From Malacoraja senta (taxonomy: Eukaryota): a DNA stretch of 64,000 nt. A program made the position numbers. The stretch lies in assembly GCA_038087875.1 (NCBI GenBank), contig JAXLNO010004298.1:1-64000 (forward strand), in the 5' to 3' direction. Of this stretch, positions 14,201-20,200 are shown in pieces. Each line of letters opens with the position of its first letter. Positions within the stretch are counted from its first letter, which is position 1.

Positions 14201-17200
14201 CTCAGCCTTTTGGCAGGCCAAAACTCCAACGTTTTGGGTTTTGATTAAAACATTGTCATTTTATAATCCATTTGGGAGTTCAAAATATGTAGGAAGGAAG
14301 TACAGATATTGGTTAATCTTTAAACCGAAGATAGACGCACAATGCTGGAGGAAATCAGCGGGACAGGCAGCCTATCTGGGGGAAGGAATCGACCCAGAGA
14401 CACTGCCTGTCCCGCTGAGTTACTCCAGCATTTTGTCTATCTTGGGGGTTCAAAACAGCGAAAATCCTCTGATTGGTGGTTGTTCATATTTTTAAATAGT
14501 TGTGTGCTGGACTCGAAAGGGAAAAACTTGCAGAGGAGCGGAATCACATCTACCTGGAATTGGTAGTGGTGGGGGAGGGGGGCACAAAGAAAATCGATAC
14601 TTTCATTTAGTTGCAAGTGGGGGCCTTGAATGCGGACCTGGGGGAAACACGACCCTCACTTACATAGACAGACAGTGTGGAGGAGGATGACCTGGGTGAA
14701 AATGCTCTTGCTTCCAGCCCCCCCCCCCCCCCCCGCAACCCACCCGCCAGATACAAAACCAGATGTTCTTCAAGATGGATTATAAAATGGCCTAATTTTG
14801 TTATCAAAACACAACGTGTTGGAGTAAGACAGCGGGCCAGGCAACAGGTTGCGATAAGAAGGAAGGGTTTACACCAAAGATAGACACTAAGTGCTGGAGT
14901 AACTCAGCAGGTCAGGCTGCATTTCTGGATAATATGGACAGATGATGTTTCGGGTCGAACCAAGACCAAATAAACAAAGAGTCGACTAGTTGCTATCAGC
15001 AGTTTTGTCACTTTTAAAATTTGGATATAAACATTAAGAATTTCACGTGCAGGAGCAACTCATCAACTTTCAACGTCTGAAATATATTTTCAAGAGATTT
15101 CTATAATATTCTCCAATTTCAGGTAGTCCCTGCTTTGTCCTTCCTTCCCCTCCCCCTTTCCAGCTCTCCCACAGCCCACTGTCTCCGCCTCTTCCTTTCT
15201 TCTTCCGTGCCCCCACCACCATCCTCAACCAAAGATCACAGAGCGGAGCTTTTGCCCAAAGATACTAGAGGATCTTTTGCCCCCCCGTATCTTTGCTTTG
15301 CACATCAGTCTGAAGAAGGGTCTCGACCAGAAACGTCACACATTCCTTCGCTCCGTAGATGCTGCCTCACCCCGCTGAGTTTCTCCAGCTTTTTGTCTAC
15401 CTTCGATTGTTCCAGCATCTGCAGCTCCTTCTTAAACAGAGAGTTGTATCATGTCATATGTTCCAAAACGGAACAGAAATTCTTACGTGTAGGAAGGAAC
15501 TGCAGATGCTGGTTTAAACCAAAGATACTAGAGGAGCTTTGGTTTAAACCGAAGATAGACTCAAAAACGCTGCAGTAACTCAGCGGGTCAGACAGTATAT
15601 ATATATTTTTTTAATTAGTGTTAATATTTAAATTCTCATCCTTAAACATGGCATTAACTGTGAAGCTTTGTTATACTTGCGCTGTGAATGTATCTAAACT
15701 GGTACACACGAAGGAACGCCTCGTACTCACGGAAAGGTCACCTGTACTGTGAGAACAAACTCAAAACAAAGTTACAACAAAACGAGAGGCCATTTGGCCC
15801 ATCATGTCGCTGTTGCGGGGGAAAATCAAGGCAATTTTCCAAAAGAAAATTCTTGCGTCGGACATTCTTGCTATTGTGGGAGTGCAGCGTAGGTTTACAA
15901 GGTTAATTCCCGGGATGGCGGGACTGTCATATGCTGAGAGAATGGAGCAGCTGGGCTTGTACAATCTGGAATTTAGAAGGAGAGGGGATCTTATTGAAAC
16001 ATATAAGATTATTAAGGGTTTGGACATGCTGGAGGGTTAGAGGTATACTGCACTGTATAGGCTATGCGTGGGAAAGCTGAGGAGTTTTGGCCCGGGCGAC
16101 GTCGCGCACAAAGTCCGGCACCCCATCCAACTCATGAACCGATGATCAGCCATGAGAAGGAGTGGTGGTGGTGGTGGTGTAGGCGGCATGGGAAGGTCGG
16201 AAGGTCGGCCCTTAATAATCTTATGTTTCAATAAGATCCCCTCTGATTCTTCTAAATTCCAGAGTGTACAAGCCCAGCCGCTCCATTCTCTCAGCATATG
16301 ATAGTCCCGCCATCCCGGGAATTAACCTTGTGAACCTACGCTGCACTCCCTCAATAGCAAGAACGTCCTTCCTCAAATTTGGAGACCAAAACTGCACACA
16401 ATACTCCAGGTGTGGTCTCACTAGGGCCCTGTACCACTGCAGAAGGACCTCTTTGCTCCAATACTCAACTCCTCTTGTTATGAAGGCCAACATGCCATTT
16501 GCTTTCTTCACTGCCTGCTGGAATCTATCTTAGTGGCCATCTTAGAGGAACAGACTTCTCCCTCCCTCCAAACCTCCCAACCCAAGTTTCCAATTCTGGG
16601 TGTGAGGACAGGAGACACAGAAGGAATCTGATGGGCCTGTCGCACTTAAGCGACTGCAGGAGACTATGCGGCCGCCACATGTTCGCGGGTGGTTGCCAGG
16701 GAGTCGCCTTCATGGTCGTGAGAAGTTCCCGCATTCTGGGAACTGGTCGCGGCTTCATTATGGTCGCCGCGAATTTTTCAACATGTTGAAAAATCAGCGG
16801 CAACTAGAATGAAGCCACCCATGGAGAGCAGCGAGAATTCTCGTTCAGTAGGTGGGTCGCCAGGAGGTCCTAATGGGTTGCCAGGAGGTCGAAGGTTCTT
16901 GGAGGTTCCCGTAGGTTGTAGCCGGTGCTGACCGGTGAATTTCATTGGCTCATTGTGGGGAAAAAAGGTAAGCAGTAGTTTTCAGAACCTAAGGATAACC
17001 AACCGATAATGTTAAATGTCCGCCGAGCTTCACAGCCGTGTATCTCTGGCTTCTTAAAAGTTGTCTCCACTGCTACTCCCCCCTTTTGTAAAGGACTTGC
17101 TGTACACGGTGCTTTAGCCTTCTTTTTACAGCTCCAACCTTCCTGTTCATCGCAGTGTGTGTCTGTTTCACCTCAAGTATCTTTGAGCAGGATGCTTTCC

Positions 17201-20200
17201 CCAACCACCCCCATTAGAAGGCCACTATCTTCCATCGTTTCTACCCAGTGCTTGGTACTTACTTCCAGCAGCCACTGCTTGTCCTCCAGGATGCACCGAG
17301 CCGCAGCCTGATCCATGCCGGTCACCTGGGTGAATTCAGCAGAGACTCTCACGGCAGCTGCGGAACGCTTCTGACTCCTCCGACGGCCCGGGACTCTTGC
17401 ACTGAGGCTGCTCCATGGCTGGAGCTGCAGCGAGCGACTCGCCAGCCCCAGCTCCCCATCCGCATCTGTCCCCGCCGCTGCTTCTGCTTCCATCCCTCCC
17501 TCAGCCCCAGCTCTCCAACACCCGCAGCACCCGGTTGATGAGTTTTGACATTTTCGTTGATCACAGAATTACTCACGACAAGAGCATGAGAAATTTGTGA
17601 TCAGCGTGAGAATTTGGCCAAATGCGTGCTTCTCACACTCGAGTCGCCGGCAGTCGTCTAAAAGATCGCCCAAGTGGGACAGACCCATCAGAGCTAGAGT
17701 GTTAAGCAGCCGGAGAAACTGAAGGGACGACCGTGTGTATTAGTGTGTGTTGGCCTTCATAGCAAGAGGATTTGAGTATAGGAGCAGGGAGGTTCTACTG
17801 CAGTTGTACAGGGTCTTGGTGAGACCACACCTGGAGTATTGCGTACAGTTTTGGTCTCCAAATCTGAGGAAGGACATTATAGCCATAGAGGGAGTACAGA
17901 GAAGGTTCACCAGACTGATTCCTGGGATGTCAGGACTTTCATATGAAGAAAGACTGGATAGACTTGGCTTATACTCGCTAGAATTTAGGAGATTGAGAGG
18001 GGATCTTATAGAAACGTACAAAATTCTTATGGGGTTGGACAGGCTAGATGCAGGAAGATTGTTCCCGATGTTGGGGAAGTCCAGGACAAGGGGTCACAGC
18101 TTAAGGATAAGGGGGAAATCCTTTAAGACCGAGATGAGGAAAAACTTTTTCACACAGAGAGTGGTGAATCTCTGGAACTCTCTGCCACAGAGGGTAGTTG
18201 AGGCCAGTTCATTGGCTATATTTAAGAGGGAGTTAGATGTGGCCCTTGTGGCTAAAGGGATCAGGGGGTATGGAGAGAAGGCAGGTACGGGATACTGAGT
18301 TGGATGATCAGCCATGATCATATTGAATGGCGGTGCAGGCTCGAAGGGCCGAATGGCCTACTCCTGCACCTATTTTCTATGTATCTACGTATCTATGTAT
18401 TAGGTGACTGAGTCAGGAAGAAAACGAGGGGACCCAGAAGATTTAATACACTTTTTTAAAATTTATTTTTCTCTCACTTATATTTGCTCTCATTTTATTT
18501 ACAGGCTCAATGAATGGGCTGTCAAGACGCGGAATTTAGACTTAAATCGAGTCTGTCGTCCATCTTTCTGCCCCTGAGCCCCGCTCCCGATGCGGTCCCG
18601 GGACCCCGACCCCCTTTTTTTTTACACGGCCGGATCGGGATCGGAGCAGATTCTCAGCCACTTGTTCTCGTCGCCGGTCCAGAAGAAAGGGTAGAGTTTC
18701 TCCGTGAATTTATTGCCGGCGTAGGTGTGGAGGTGCGACTTGGAGTCCGCGCTGTGAAAGGAAATGGTCCCCGGTTCGTAGTTGAGGCTGACCCGCACTC
18801 GCCCGGGGATGGGGTCGGCCGGGAGGGGGAACCCGGGTGAGGTGTTGACGTAGAAGCCGCCTCCAAACCGCCCGATGGTCCAGAATCCGTTCTCTGGGAC
18901 CACCCCCACCCACCCTCTCCTCTCCACCGACTCGGTGGCGACTCCCAGGCTCCAGATCTGGTTCTCCGCCACCTCCACCTCCCAGTGACGCCGCCCCGAG
19001 GTGAACCCCTCCGACCCCAGCACGCACGCCCACTCGGTGAACCTCTTGTCGGTGTCGGCCACGCTGCTCCAGGTCCCGCTCAGCCTCACGCTCCTCCGAT
19101 CCGCGGACACTTCCAGTCTCGGATTTGCCGTCTCCGGGTCCAGGCTCACGGAGGCTGGGAAGGTGGAGAAAGGAGAAACTCAGAGATATTTCAATAGAAC
19201 CCGAAACATCACCAATTCCTTCTCTCCAGAGATGCTGCCTGTCCCGCTGAGTTACTCAAGCATTTAGGGGTGGGAGATTGCAACCTTCATGTGGTCCGCC
19301 CTGTTTCGACGAATGCACAATCAATTAAGATCAAATAGAACAAGTTGTCCAACAACTTCTGGCTGCGCACGCCATACGCCAGACGACGACTCACGCATTT
19401 ATAGACAATAGGTGCCGGAGTAGGCCATTCAGCCCTTCGAGCCAGCACCGCCATTCAATGTGATCATGGCAGATCATCCACGATCAGTACCCCGTTCCTG
19501 CCTTCTCCCCATATCCCTTGACTCCACTATCTTTAAGAGCTCTATCTAATTCTCTGAGGCAGAGAATTACACACACTCAAAATGCTGTGTTCCTCAACTC
19601 TGTTCTAATTGGCTTAGCCCTTATTCTTAAACAGTGGCCCCTGGTTCTGGACTCCCCCTACATCAGGAACATGTTTCCTGCCTCTGGCGTGTCCAAACCC
19701 TTAACAATCTTATATGTTTCAATAAGATGCCCTCTCATCCTTCTAAACTCCAGAGTATACAAGCCCAGCCGCTCCATTCTATCAGCATATGACAGTCCCG
19801 CCATCCCGGGAATTAACCTCGTGAACCTACACTGCACTCCCTCAATAGCAAGAATGTACCTCAAGTTTGGAGACCAAACAGCACACAATACTCCATGTGT
19901 AGTCTCACTAGGGCCCTGTACAACTGCAGGAGGACTTCTTTGCTCCTATACTCGATTCGTCTTGCTATGAAGGCCAACATGAAGTGACTGATGAACAGTG
20001 ACCGATGCATGGGCAATGCAGTTTAATGTGGATAAATATGAGGTTATCCACTTTGGTAGCAAAAACAAGAAGGCAGATTATTACCTAAATGGTGTCAAGT
20101 TGGGAAAAGGGGAAGTACAACGGATCTGGGGGGTCCTTGTTCATCAGTCAATGAAAGTAAGCATGCAGGTACAGCAGGCAGTGAAGAAAGCGAATGGCAT

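What the first reader, a model, noticed from the sequence alone, without database searches (positions are those of the whole stretch)
16627..17692. Possible Pack-Harbinger element that captured TDP2 exon 1
Seen: 21-bp TIRs (19/21 match, with a shared tctgat extension absent from the other Harbinger ends here) enclose a MITE-like body plus about 470 bp containing upstream sequence, a complete 77-codon TDP2-like exon, its GTAAGT donor and about 90 nt of intron. No further TDP2 exons were found. Known: Pack-type DNA transposons capture genomic, intron-containing gene fragments, mostly described in plants; TDP2 has an N-terminal UBA-like domain. Inference: a mobile first exon that can splice a UBA-like domain onto downstream genes would be a vertebrate exon-shuffling vehicle.
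Basis: partly seen in the sequence, partly recalled or inferred. Interest (0 to 1): 0.65.

Follow-up and report, generated by a model that had tools for sequence, protein, structure and literature searches.

The report
Stray TDP2 first exon inside MITE
A small non-autonomous DNA transposon in what looks like a skate genome encloses a decaying stray copy of the first exon of the DNA-repair gene TDP2, an example of transposon-associated gene-fragment capture that is already known in animals.

Summary
Two inverted ends (19 of 21, 23 of 27 when extended) at 16627 and 17692 share a 15-nt core with three other ends in the window. They enclose a MITE-like left body and a minus-strand TDP2 exon-1 copy with its GTAAGT donor. 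The closest named relative is Leucoraja erinacea TDP2, and no other TDP2 exon lies in the 64 kb.

My best reading (about 0.6) is a Pack-TIR: an ectopic 5' fragment of TDP2 (leader, exon 1 and at least 78 nt of intron 1) inside one MITE, most likely placed there by template-switch gap repair.

- The copy is decayed. Two deletions (19 and 2 nt) put the annotated start codon out of frame with the UBA part.
- Coding sequence is no better conserved than the flanking non-coding sequence among four copies.
- An unrelated minus-strand B30.2 exon ends about 0.9 kb upstream, and MITE and LINE sequence fill most of the gap.

The "UBA exon-shuffling vehicle" idea is not supported. Exon 1 holds only about two thirds of the UBA-like domain, and there is no target-site duplication. 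No transposase or second copy lies in the window, and mobility is untested.

Copy number and the parental locus could not be checked, because no eukaryotic genome collection was available. Pack-TIRs are already described in vertebrates (PMC8277862). I rate this a new member of a known kind, of modest interest.

The parts
16627..16653 (+). Left terminal inverted repeat: a 6-nt TCTGAT extension followed by the family core GGGCCTGTCGCACTT
   Evidence: pair I3 (27 nt, 85%); core shared with 4 other sites; 19 of 21.
16654..16960 (+). MITE-like body, including the internal palindrome 16751-16816 and repeated GTCGCC/GTTGCC motifs
   Evidence: 0 of 200 shuffles reach its similarity to the 57557-57783 MITE; the palindrome-arm motif occurs at 16763-16784(+), 16783-16804(-) and 57610-57631. 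pair I2. The right-hand limit of this part is approximate.
16961..17184 (.). Internal sequence of unassigned origin. It is unique in the window and could be more TDP2 intron 1 or other filler.
   Evidence: no other match in the window; no MITE similarity (162 of 200 shuffles reach the score).
17185..17262 (-). Start of TDP2 intron 1, with the GTAAGT donor at 17262-17257. The frame stays open through it to a TGA at 17175-17173.
   Evidence: Translated read-through is 24 of 26 identical to P0007 and 19 of 26 to P0002. Similarity to both ends after '...ILL' at 17185.
17263..17416 (-). TDP2 exon-1 coding part (MEQPQ... to ...QWLLE). It carries a 2-nt deletion at about 17341-17338, which places a TGA at 17338-17336 in the frame of the annotated start codon.
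   Evidence: tblastn of L. erinacea TDP2 gives residues 1-28 at 17416-17339 (75%) and residues 27-62 at 17346-17239, in two different frames..
17417..17493 (-). Leader with the upstream ATG (17493-17491) that opens the 77-codon ORF. A 19-nt deletion is inferred at the single GGGCTGGCGAGT copy (17448-17437).
   Evidence: The leader is conserved in P0002, P0007 and P0008. The size of the deletion is inferred from the peptide alignment, not from relatives' DNA.
17494..17665 (+). Upstream stretch that passes into the MITE right subterminal region (clear from about 17615; GCCGGCAGTCGTC at 17646-17658)
   Evidence: local alignment of 17615-17686 to MITE positions 162-227; the motif is shared with 57743-57755; only marginal overall (12 of 200).
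17666..17692 (-). Right terminal inverted repeat, with the same TCTGAT extension

Best explanation
This is a Pack-TIR: one non-autonomous TIR element (a MITE of the GGGCCTGTCCCACTT family) whose interior now carries an ectopic genomic copy of the 5' end of TDP2. The copy comprises the leader, exon 1, the donor and at least 78 nt of intron 1.

The most likely origin (inferred, not shown) is repair of a break inside a resident MITE by template switching to the GC-rich TDP2 5' region. This is the 'gap-filling' route that accounts for most animal Pack-TIRs.

The copy now evolves as non-coding DNA. It has lost the reading frame from the annotated start codon, it holds only the first two thirds of the UBA-like domain, and it lies in TE-rich sequence just downstream of an unrelated gene's last exon. 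At this locus it is best seen as a decaying pseudo-exon. Whether the chimera ever transposed as a unit is open.
For: **Shown**
1. The two ends belong to one family and face outward 1,066 bp apart. Only 5 core sites exist in 64 kb, and only these two share the 6-nt TCTGAT extension.
2. The halves are complementary parts of one MITE. The left part aligns to positions 13-116, and the right part to positions 162-227, of the 227-bp copy at 57557-57783. The left interior is significant (0 of 200 shuffles).
3. The insert is TDP2-derived. P0007 is 85% identical to L. erinacea TDP2, and tblastn of that protein hits only exon 1 in the window. It is genomic, not a retrocopy, because the donor and intron start are present.
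4. No catalytic TDP2 exon is present. The remaining tblastn hits have E of 0.7 or more. The 150 minus-strand ORFs scanned (30 aa or longer, those starting between positions 3 and 15228, out of 172 listed for 1-17300) gave only LINE RT and endonuclease matches.
5. The copy is decayed. All three unnamed relatives (P0002, P0007, P0008) keep one frame from MEAEA through MEQPQ to the UBA part. L. erinacea TDP2 keeps the frame from MEQPQ on. The window has two frame-changing gaps, so the MEQPQ frame ends at a TGA after 26 codons.
6. There is no sign of coding constraint. Identities for leader, CDS and intron read-through are:
 - window vs P0007: 25/29, 47/52, 24/26
 - window vs P0002: 26/30, 37/52, 19/26
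 - P0002 vs P0007: 23/32, 40/52, 21/28
7. Context speaks against a native promoter. A PRY/SPRY exon on the same strand ends with TAA at 18624-18622, followed by AATAAA or ATTAAA at 18499-18447. A LINE 3' fragment fills 17744-18298 and the MITE end fills 17615-17692.
8. The captured part is GC-rich (0.645 against 0.467 for the window).

**From the literature**
Pack-TIRs in 100 animal genomes (81 vertebrate) are mostly single-copy and made by gap filling. Their breakpoints lie inside the TE with only a small loss of TE sequence, and exons are over-represented among captured sequences (PMC8277862, sections 8 and 10).
Against: - The parental TDP2 locus of this genome was not seen. The species of the window and of P0002, P0007 and P0008 is unknown, so those three could be orthologues from other species rather than paralogues.
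- The 77-codon frame from the upstream ATG is still open, because the two deletions sum to 21 nt. A native, functional exon is therefore not excluded.
- Skate introns can exceed 17 kb, so exon 2 could lie beyond the left edge of the window.
- There is no target-site duplication. Flanks are GAA / GCT with the extension counted, or GAT / ATC without it. No 'empty' MITE consensus was available.
- Similarity of the right interior to the MITE is only marginal (12 of 200 shuffles), and the family copies in the window are diverged.
- No parental copy lies within 16.6 kb to the left or 46 kb to the right. In the 2021 survey 56.9% of Pack-TIRs lay within 15 kb of their parent.
- In human (recalled, not tested here) TDP2, the butyrophilins and PPT2 all lie on 6p. 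The MHC-like context is therefore not strong evidence that the site is foreign to TDP2.
Confidence: 0.6

Rival explanations
1. Native TDP2 exon 1. This is the real first exon of the gene, its intron 1 is longer than 17 kb, and two independent, truncated MITE insertions happen to flank it, one in the intron and one upstream.
For: - The donor is intact and the 77-codon ORF is open.
- Leader, exon and intron start are colinear with three other sequences that could be orthologues.
- No second TDP2 copy lies in the window.
- The region has MHC-like content (PPT2-like, B30.2 and Ig V/C exons). In human (recalled) TDP2 shares a chromosome arm with such genes.
Against: - It needs two insertions and two internal truncations that leave complementary halves with outward ends and an identical private 6-nt extension.
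- The annotated start codon is out of frame with the UBA part, unlike in L. erinacea TDP2 and all three unnamed relatives.
- The coding sequence is no better conserved than the intron or leader.
- Another minus-strand gene's last exon and poly(A) signals lie 0.9-1.1 kb upstream, with MITE and LINE sequence in between.
- No thioesterase (4HBT) exon lies on the + strand to the right. In human, as I recall, ACOT13 is head to head with TDP2.
- No Exo_endo_phos exon of TDP2 type lies in the 17 kb downstream.
Confidence: 0.2
2. One reading: a transposition-competent, multi-copy Pack-Harbinger family that spreads TDP2 exon 1 with its donor and can donate a UBA-like N-terminus to downstream genes.
For: - At least three further distinct versions of the same leader, exon and intron-start unit exist in public data on short contigs: P0002 on 4,646 nt, P0007 on 1,217 nt and P0008 on 702 nt.
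- They are 71-90% identical to the window's coding part, and all differ from L. erinacea TDP2 at the same two places: a gap of at least 2 codons, and G in place of D in 'QVTDMD'.
- The two ends share a sub-family mark.
Against:
- No target-site duplication, no transposase in the window and no second copy in 64 kb.
- Exon 1 lacks the last UBA helix.
- This copy is frameshifted, and only LINE ORFs lie downstream on its strand.
Confidence: 0.15
3. The fragment arrived by a rearrangement unrelated to the transposon (segmental or inverted duplication, or an RNA or cDNA-templated patch), and the TIR pair is incidental.
For: - No target-site duplication.
- The flanks just outside the core are inverted (TCTGAT / ATCAGA) rather than direct, as a fold-back duplication of one end with its flank would give.
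- A 271-nt inverted repeat lies further out, at 16222-16492 and 17748-18018 (pair I1).
Against: - The outer inverted repeat is two copies of a LINE 3' fragment that gives 41 hits in the window, counting the query itself.
- Sequence between it and the TIRs is unique and not mirrored.
- Left and right MITE parts are different, complementary parts of the MITE, not mirror images. Left interior against the reverse complement of the right interior: 19 of 200 shuffles reach the score.
Confidence: 0.05

Closest known systems
Animal Pack-TIRs (Tan et al. 2021, Nat Commun 12:4280, PMC8277862)
   Same: - Two ends of one TIR element enclose 100-5,000 bp of non-TE sequence.
- The captured piece is short, GC-rich, exonic and still contains intron sequence.
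- The breakpoints lie inside the TE with little TE sequence lost.
- No evidence of later amplification, as for most animal cases.
   Different: - The parental copy in the same genome was not identified, so their 90%-identity and uniqueness criteria are untested.
- The internal region (about 790 bp, of which at least 310 bp is TDP2-derived) is larger than their 224-bp median.
- No parent lies within 15 kb.
- The host appears to be a cartilaginous fish. Whether any was among their 100 genomes is not in the text I read, and their supplements could not be opened.
Plant Pack-MULEs and Pack-TYPE elements
   Same: A non-autonomous TIR element carrying an intron-containing host gene fragment, with a bias toward GC-rich 5' ends of genes (recalled for Pack-MULEs; PMC5861414 and PMC8903248 seen only as search listings and abstracts).
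   Different: - A different superfamily and a different host kingdom.
- Plant families are multi-copy with clear target-site duplications. Here neither is shown.
PIF/Harbinger MITEs (Tourist-like)
   Same: Short TIRs starting GGGCC, AT-rich palindromic interiors and a small size (the 227-bp copy at 57557-57783). The resemblance is recalled, not tested.
   Different: - No 3-bp TWA duplication at any of the three loci in the window.
- No DDE_Tnp_4 or Myb-like partner in the window.
- No repeat library was available to compare the TIR with.
TDP2 (tyrosyl-DNA phosphodiesterase 2) of Leucoraja erinacea, P0009
   Same: Exon 1 residues 1-54 match the window (21 of 28 and 23 of 26 in the two pieces), and the exon ends at the same place (...QWLLE | RALNSYFE).
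   Different: - The window has a 2-codon gap and a frameshift.
- It has none of the 306 remaining residues, including the Exo_endo_phos domain at residues 116-349.

Membership tests
Pack-TIR (criteria of PMC8277862, section 14) | Internal sequence of 100-5,000 bp flanked by two ends of the same TIR element | tested here: met
   The ends at 16627-16653 and 17666-17692 share the family core. 1,012 bp lie between the arms, of which about 790 bp are not MITE-like.
Pack-TIR (criteria of PMC8277862, section 14) | Both ends cover at least 10 bp of the termini of the TE consensus | tested here: inconclusive
   No consensus library was available. Both ends match the 15-nt terminal core of the three other ends in the window with no mismatch to the degenerate pattern.
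Pack-TIR (criteria of PMC8277862, section 14) | A unique parental copy, not TE-flanked, elsewhere in the same genome (at least 90% identity, 80-120% length) | not testable with these tools
   No eukaryotic genome collection was available. The parent gene family is identified only through L. erinacea TDP2. None lies in the window.
Pack-TIR (criteria of PMC8277862, section 14) | Not a retrocopy: the captured sequence keeps intron sequence | tested here: met
   GTAAGT donor plus at least 78 nt conserved with the read-through of P0002 and P0007.
Mobile (multi-copy) Pack element | Target-site duplication, and further copies with the same ends at other loci | tested here: not met
   Flanks are GAA / GCT, or GAT / ATC without the extension. 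There is no second copy in the window. Genome-wide copy number is not testable here.
PIF/Harbinger superfamily | 3-bp target-site duplication, usually TWA (recalled) | tested here: not met
   This element: GAT / ATC, or GAA / GCT. The 57557-57783 MITE: AAA / ATT. The solo end at 12739 cannot be judged.
PIF/Harbinger superfamily | An autonomous partner with a DDE_Tnp_4 transposase and a Myb-like protein (recalled) | tested here: inconclusive
   No such Pfam match among 832 ORFs scanned across both strands of the window. Minimum ORF length was 20-48 aa depending on region. A partner may lie elsewhere in the genome.
Native TDP2 gene | Exon 1 followed on the same strand by the exons of the Exo_endo_phos catalytic domain | tested here: not met
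   tblastn of P0009 gives only exon 1, and all other hits have E of 0.7 or more. Minus-strand ORFs starting between 3 and 15228 give only LINE domains. Exons beyond the window edge cannot be excluded.
Native TDP2 gene | An unbroken frame from the annotated start codon through the UBA-like domain | tested here: not met
   MEQPQ (17416) runs into a TGA at 17338-17336. The UBA part is in another frame.
UBA-like domain (Pfam UBA_4, PF14555) | The whole domain (43 profile positions, three helices) is encoded by the mobile unit | tested here: not met
   Window ORF: positions 5-27 of 43, 17.7 bits, below the 21.8 cut-off. P0007: positions 2-31. In P0009 the domain spans residues 26-63, while exon 1 ends at residue 54.

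The most novel reading that the evidence does not exclude
The window's copy, P0002, P0007 and P0008 are paralogous members of one transposing Pack element in skates. On this reading a MITE picked up the TDP2 leader, exon 1 and donor and then spread. It now offers an ATG, an open frame and a splice donor at many loci, so it can found chimeric transcripts in a vertebrate lineage whose DNA transposons are little studied.
Probability: 0.15. Interest if true: 0.55.

Novelty: new member of a known kind. Interest (0 to 1): 0.3.

Why it matters
If the Pack-TIR reading holds, it adds a cartilaginous-fish case with an unusually clear anatomy to the still short list of DNA-transposon-associated gene-fragment duplications in vertebrates. 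The fragment includes a leader, a start codon, an exon and a donor.

It matters more if the chimera proves multi-copy. In the 2021 survey, multi-copy Pack-TIRs were reported only in frog, alligator and fly (in the text I read). A family carrying a ready-made first exon would make TE-driven exon shuffling testable in skates.

For genome annotation the practical point is a warning. This ORF and its relatives are likely to be called as small 'UBA-like' proteins or as a false TDP2 5' exon.

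Tried and rejected
**Protein searches with the exon**
- Word-indexed search for longer proteins with the window's own 77-aa ORF: nothing at E 0.01 or better. The frameshifted middle hid the relationship. It was recovered through P0002, then P0007, then P0009.
- Representative search: 5 hits at E 0.001 or better. Only P0002 aligned over the whole query. I fetched P0003, which is a repeat protein matching in several stretches. P0004, P0005 and P0006 also matched only in part, and I did not fetch or examine them.

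**Checks that came up empty or were rejected**
- The outer 271-nt inverted repeat as part of the structure. Rejected: it is an abundant LINE 3' fragment (41 hits counting the query itself), and the sequence next to the TIRs is unique.
- An empty site or insertion into a known repeat: none found.
- Rfam scan of 15500-19000 at E 0.1 or better: 0 matches.
- Upstream PPT2 exons, to decide whether the element is intronic. None were found on the + strand in 1-21.6 kb, so the question stays open. I did not look into the N stretches.
- A 4HBT (ACOT13-like) exon as a synteny marker: none on the + strand.
- CpG observed/expected for the exon is 0.65, against 0.58 for the window. Not informative.
- Literature search for the TIR core as a string returned only unrelated primer matches (68 papers held the string; the 10 listed were unrelated).

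Full report
**What is at 16627-17692**

The sequence was read directly. The two ends, TCTGATGGGCCTGTCGCACTT at 16627 and the reverse complement of 17672-17692, match at 19 of 21. With gaps excluded, the inverted repeat runs to 27 nt at 85% (pair I3).

The 15-nt core GGGYCTGTCSCACTT is a family signature. It occurs 5 times in the window at up to 2 mismatches, against 0.44 expected, and 0 of 100 shuffles reached 5. Besides this element, the sites form a complete 227-bp MITE at 57557-57783 and a solo end at 12725-12739. Only the two ends of this element are preceded by TCTGAT.

With the TIRs removed, similarity to the 227-bp MITE was tested against 200 dinucleotide shuffles:

| Region | Shuffles reaching the observed score |
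|---|---|
| Left interior 16654-16960 | 0 of 200 |
| Right interior 17494-17665 | 12 of 200 |
| Middle 16961-17262 | 162 of 200 |
| Exon 17263-17493 | 195 of 200 |

The left part aligns to MITE positions 13-116 and the right part to positions 162-227. The two parts therefore look like one MITE opened near its middle, not two mirror-image ends.

**The gene fragment**

On the minus strand an ATG at 17493 opens 77 codons that end at a GTAAGT donor at 17262-17257.

- The ORF alone gave only weak signs: UBA_4 at E 0.003, below the Pfam cut-off, and the TDP2 UBA domain as the only PDB hit at E 0.98. It gave nothing in a word-indexed search for longer proteins.
- An exhaustive search of 1.84 billion representatives found one true relative, P0002 (E 3.6e-9).
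- Searching with P0002 found P0007 and P0008.
- Searching with the exon part of P0007 found TDP2 of Leucoraja erinacea (P0009, 360 aa, 85% identity, E 7e-19).
- tblastn of P0009 against the whole window hits only exon 1, as two pieces in different frames: residues 1-28 at 17416-17339 and residues 27-62 at 17346-17239. Every other hit has E of 0.7 or more.

The exon ends exactly where the skate protein continues with RALNSYFE. So the source is TDP2 of a cartilaginous fish, probably a skate. The window is not human. Only this one exon was searched.

**State of the copy**

P0002, P0007 and P0008 all read in one frame from MEAEA through MEQPQ (the annotated start in L. erinacea) to the UBA part. 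P0002 and P0007 continue through the donor into the intron. P0009 keeps the frame from MEQPQ on.

The window needs two frame changes to follow them:

- One lies at the single copy of GGGCTGGCGAGT (17448-17437). There the relatives have seven more residues, which I read as a 19-nt deletion between direct repeats. This is inferred from peptides only.
- The other is a 2-nt loss at TGC|TGA (17341-17336).

The MEQPQ frame therefore stops after 26 codons. The upstream ATG stays in frame with the UBA part only because the two losses sum to 21 nt.

Conservation gives no sign of coding constraint (identical residues / aligned residues):

| Comparison | Leader | Coding part | Intron read-through |
|---|---|---|---|
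| Window vs P0007 | 25/29 | 47/52 | 24/26 |
| Window vs P0002 | 26/30 | 37/52 | 19/26 |
| P0002 vs P0007 | 23/32 | 40/52 | 21/28 |

These are small numbers and a soft argument.

**Can it donate a UBA-like domain?**

Not a whole one. In P0009 the UBA_4 match covers residues 26-63 (profile 2-39 of 43), but exon 1 ends at residue 54. P0007 matches profile positions 2-31 and the window's ORF only 5-27. The last helix is encoded by exon 2.

**Surroundings**

Minus strand, downstream of the exon:
- Of 172 ORFs of 30 aa or more listed for 1-17300, the 150 that start between positions 3 and 15228 were scanned. They give only LINE reverse transcriptase and endonuclease matches.

Minus strand, upstream of the exon:
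- A PRY/SPRY (B30.2) exon at 18625-19179 ends with TAA at 18624-18622.
- It is followed by AATAAA or ATTAAA at 18499, 18467 and 18447.
- A LINE 3' fragment fills 17744-18298.
- Together with the MITE end, this leaves little room for a housekeeping promoter.

Plus strand:
- PPT2-like exons lie at 22614-22697, 23794-23904 and 26634-27188.
- Butyrophilin-like Ig exons lie between 38.4 and 48.5 kb, and carnitine-acyltransferase exons between 53.4 and 59.3 kb.
- No 4HBT (ACOT13-like) exon was seen.
- No upstream PPT2 exon was found in 1-21.6 kb. Whether the element sits inside a long PPT2 intron therefore stays open.

Other points:
- In human (recalled) TDP2, the butyrophilins and PPT2 share chromosome arm 6p, so this context is only mild evidence that the site is foreign to TDP2.
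- The 271-nt inverted repeat outside the element (pair I1) is two copies of a LINE fragment with 41 hits in the window, counting the query itself. It is not part of the structure.
- The sequence directly next to both TIRs is unique.

**What it most likely is**

It is one MITE with about 790 bp of foreign DNA inside, of which at least 310 bp (17185-17493) come from the 5' end of TDP2. That is a Pack-TIR.

The native-exon rival needs two insertions and two truncations that leave complementary halves with the same private extension. It also needs a gene whose annotated start is out of frame and whose promoter space is taken by repeats. I give it about 0.2.

For the origin I follow the model that fits most animal cases: a break inside a resident TE, repaired by template switching to another locus, with little TE sequence lost and no transposition needed (PMC8277862, section 8). 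Here roughly 45 of 227 MITE positions are missing between the two aligned halves. This mechanism is inferred. Neither breakpoint can be fixed without the parental sequence.

**What speaks for and against mobility**

For:
- Three further versions of the same unit exist on short public contigs.
- They share with the window two differences from L. erinacea TDP2.

Against or unknown:
- Their species and flanks could not be seen. They may be orthologues.
- There is no target-site duplication, no second copy in the window, and no DDE_Tnp_4 transposase among 832 ORFs scanned.
- The 'Harbinger' label rests on the look of the TIR only. The 3-bp duplication expected for that superfamily (recalled) is absent at this element and at the 57557-57783 MITE.

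**Novelty**

Capture of gene fragments by TIR elements is no longer a plant speciality. 370 Pack-TIRs were reported in 100 animal genomes, 81 of them vertebrate. Their median captured size was 224 bp, and 13.4% captured exonic sequence (PMC8277862; abstract, passages, and sections 8 and 14 read).

- The word 'Harbinger' does not occur in that paper's main text.
- Its supplementary tables, which would list species and superfamilies, could not be opened.
- A search for 'Pack-TIR' with 'vertebrate' from 2021 on found only that paper and one plant review.
- A search for skate, Harbinger, MITE and elasmobranch (16 papers held at least 3 of the 4 terms; 10 listed) showed nothing on such elements in its titles and abstract openings.

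I therefore rate this a new member of a known kind.

**What stayed unchecked**

- Genome-wide copy number, the parental locus, orthologous sites and expression.
- Genome contigs holds only prokaryotes and was not used.
- The cluster look-up and the protein Atlas were unavailable.
- The N stretches at 21592-22064, 22187-22588 and 50798-50997 were left as they are.

Noticed in passing
window 18625-19179 (-): An intact-looking PRY/SPRY (B30.2) exon of 185 aa (PRY E 7e-20, SPRY E 3e-18). It ends with TAA at 18624-18622, with AATAAA or ATTAAA at 18499, 18467 and 18447. This is the 3' end of a TRIM- or butyrophilin-like gene, whose other exons were not found on that strand.
   Followed up: partly
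window 22614-22697, 23794-23904, 26634-27188 (+): The last exons of a PPT2-like palmitoyl-protein thioesterase (Palm_thioest profile positions 151-254). The exons for positions 1-150 were not found anywhere upstream in the window.
   Followed up: partly
window 21592-22064 and 22187-22588: The two N stretches flank a (TG)n-rich run at 22065-22186. They were left untouched.
   Followed up: no
window about 42.0-47.1 kb and 47.1-52.2 kb: A direct duplication with a period of about 5.07 kb. Each unit carries an Ig V-set exon (42987-43427 and 48124-48501) and a LINE RT fragment (44732-45142 and 49806-50216). A butyrophilin-type C2-set_3 exon lies at 45952-46272, and a third V-set exon at 38400-38960.
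   Followed up: no
window 53408-59337 (+): Four exons of a carnitine/choline acyltransferase (profile positions 367-574). The complete 227-bp MITE of the same family as the finding (57557-57783) sits about 15 nt after the exon match that ends near 57542.
   Followed up: no
window 12725-12739 (-): A solo end of the same MITE family (GGGCCTGTCCCACTT). No partner end was found within the window.
   Followed up: partly
window 4958-10271 (-): LINE remains with long open frames: RT at 6263-8005 (581 aa) and 8660-9667 (336 aa), and an endonuclease piece at 10098-10271. The related LINE 3' fragment gives 41 hits across the window, counting the query copy itself.
   Followed up: no
window 16627-16960 and 17494-17692: The MITE-derived parts have a CpG observed/expected ratio of 0.84-0.89, well above the window's 0.58 and above the TDP2 exon copy's 0.65. 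No explanation was sought.
   Followed up: no
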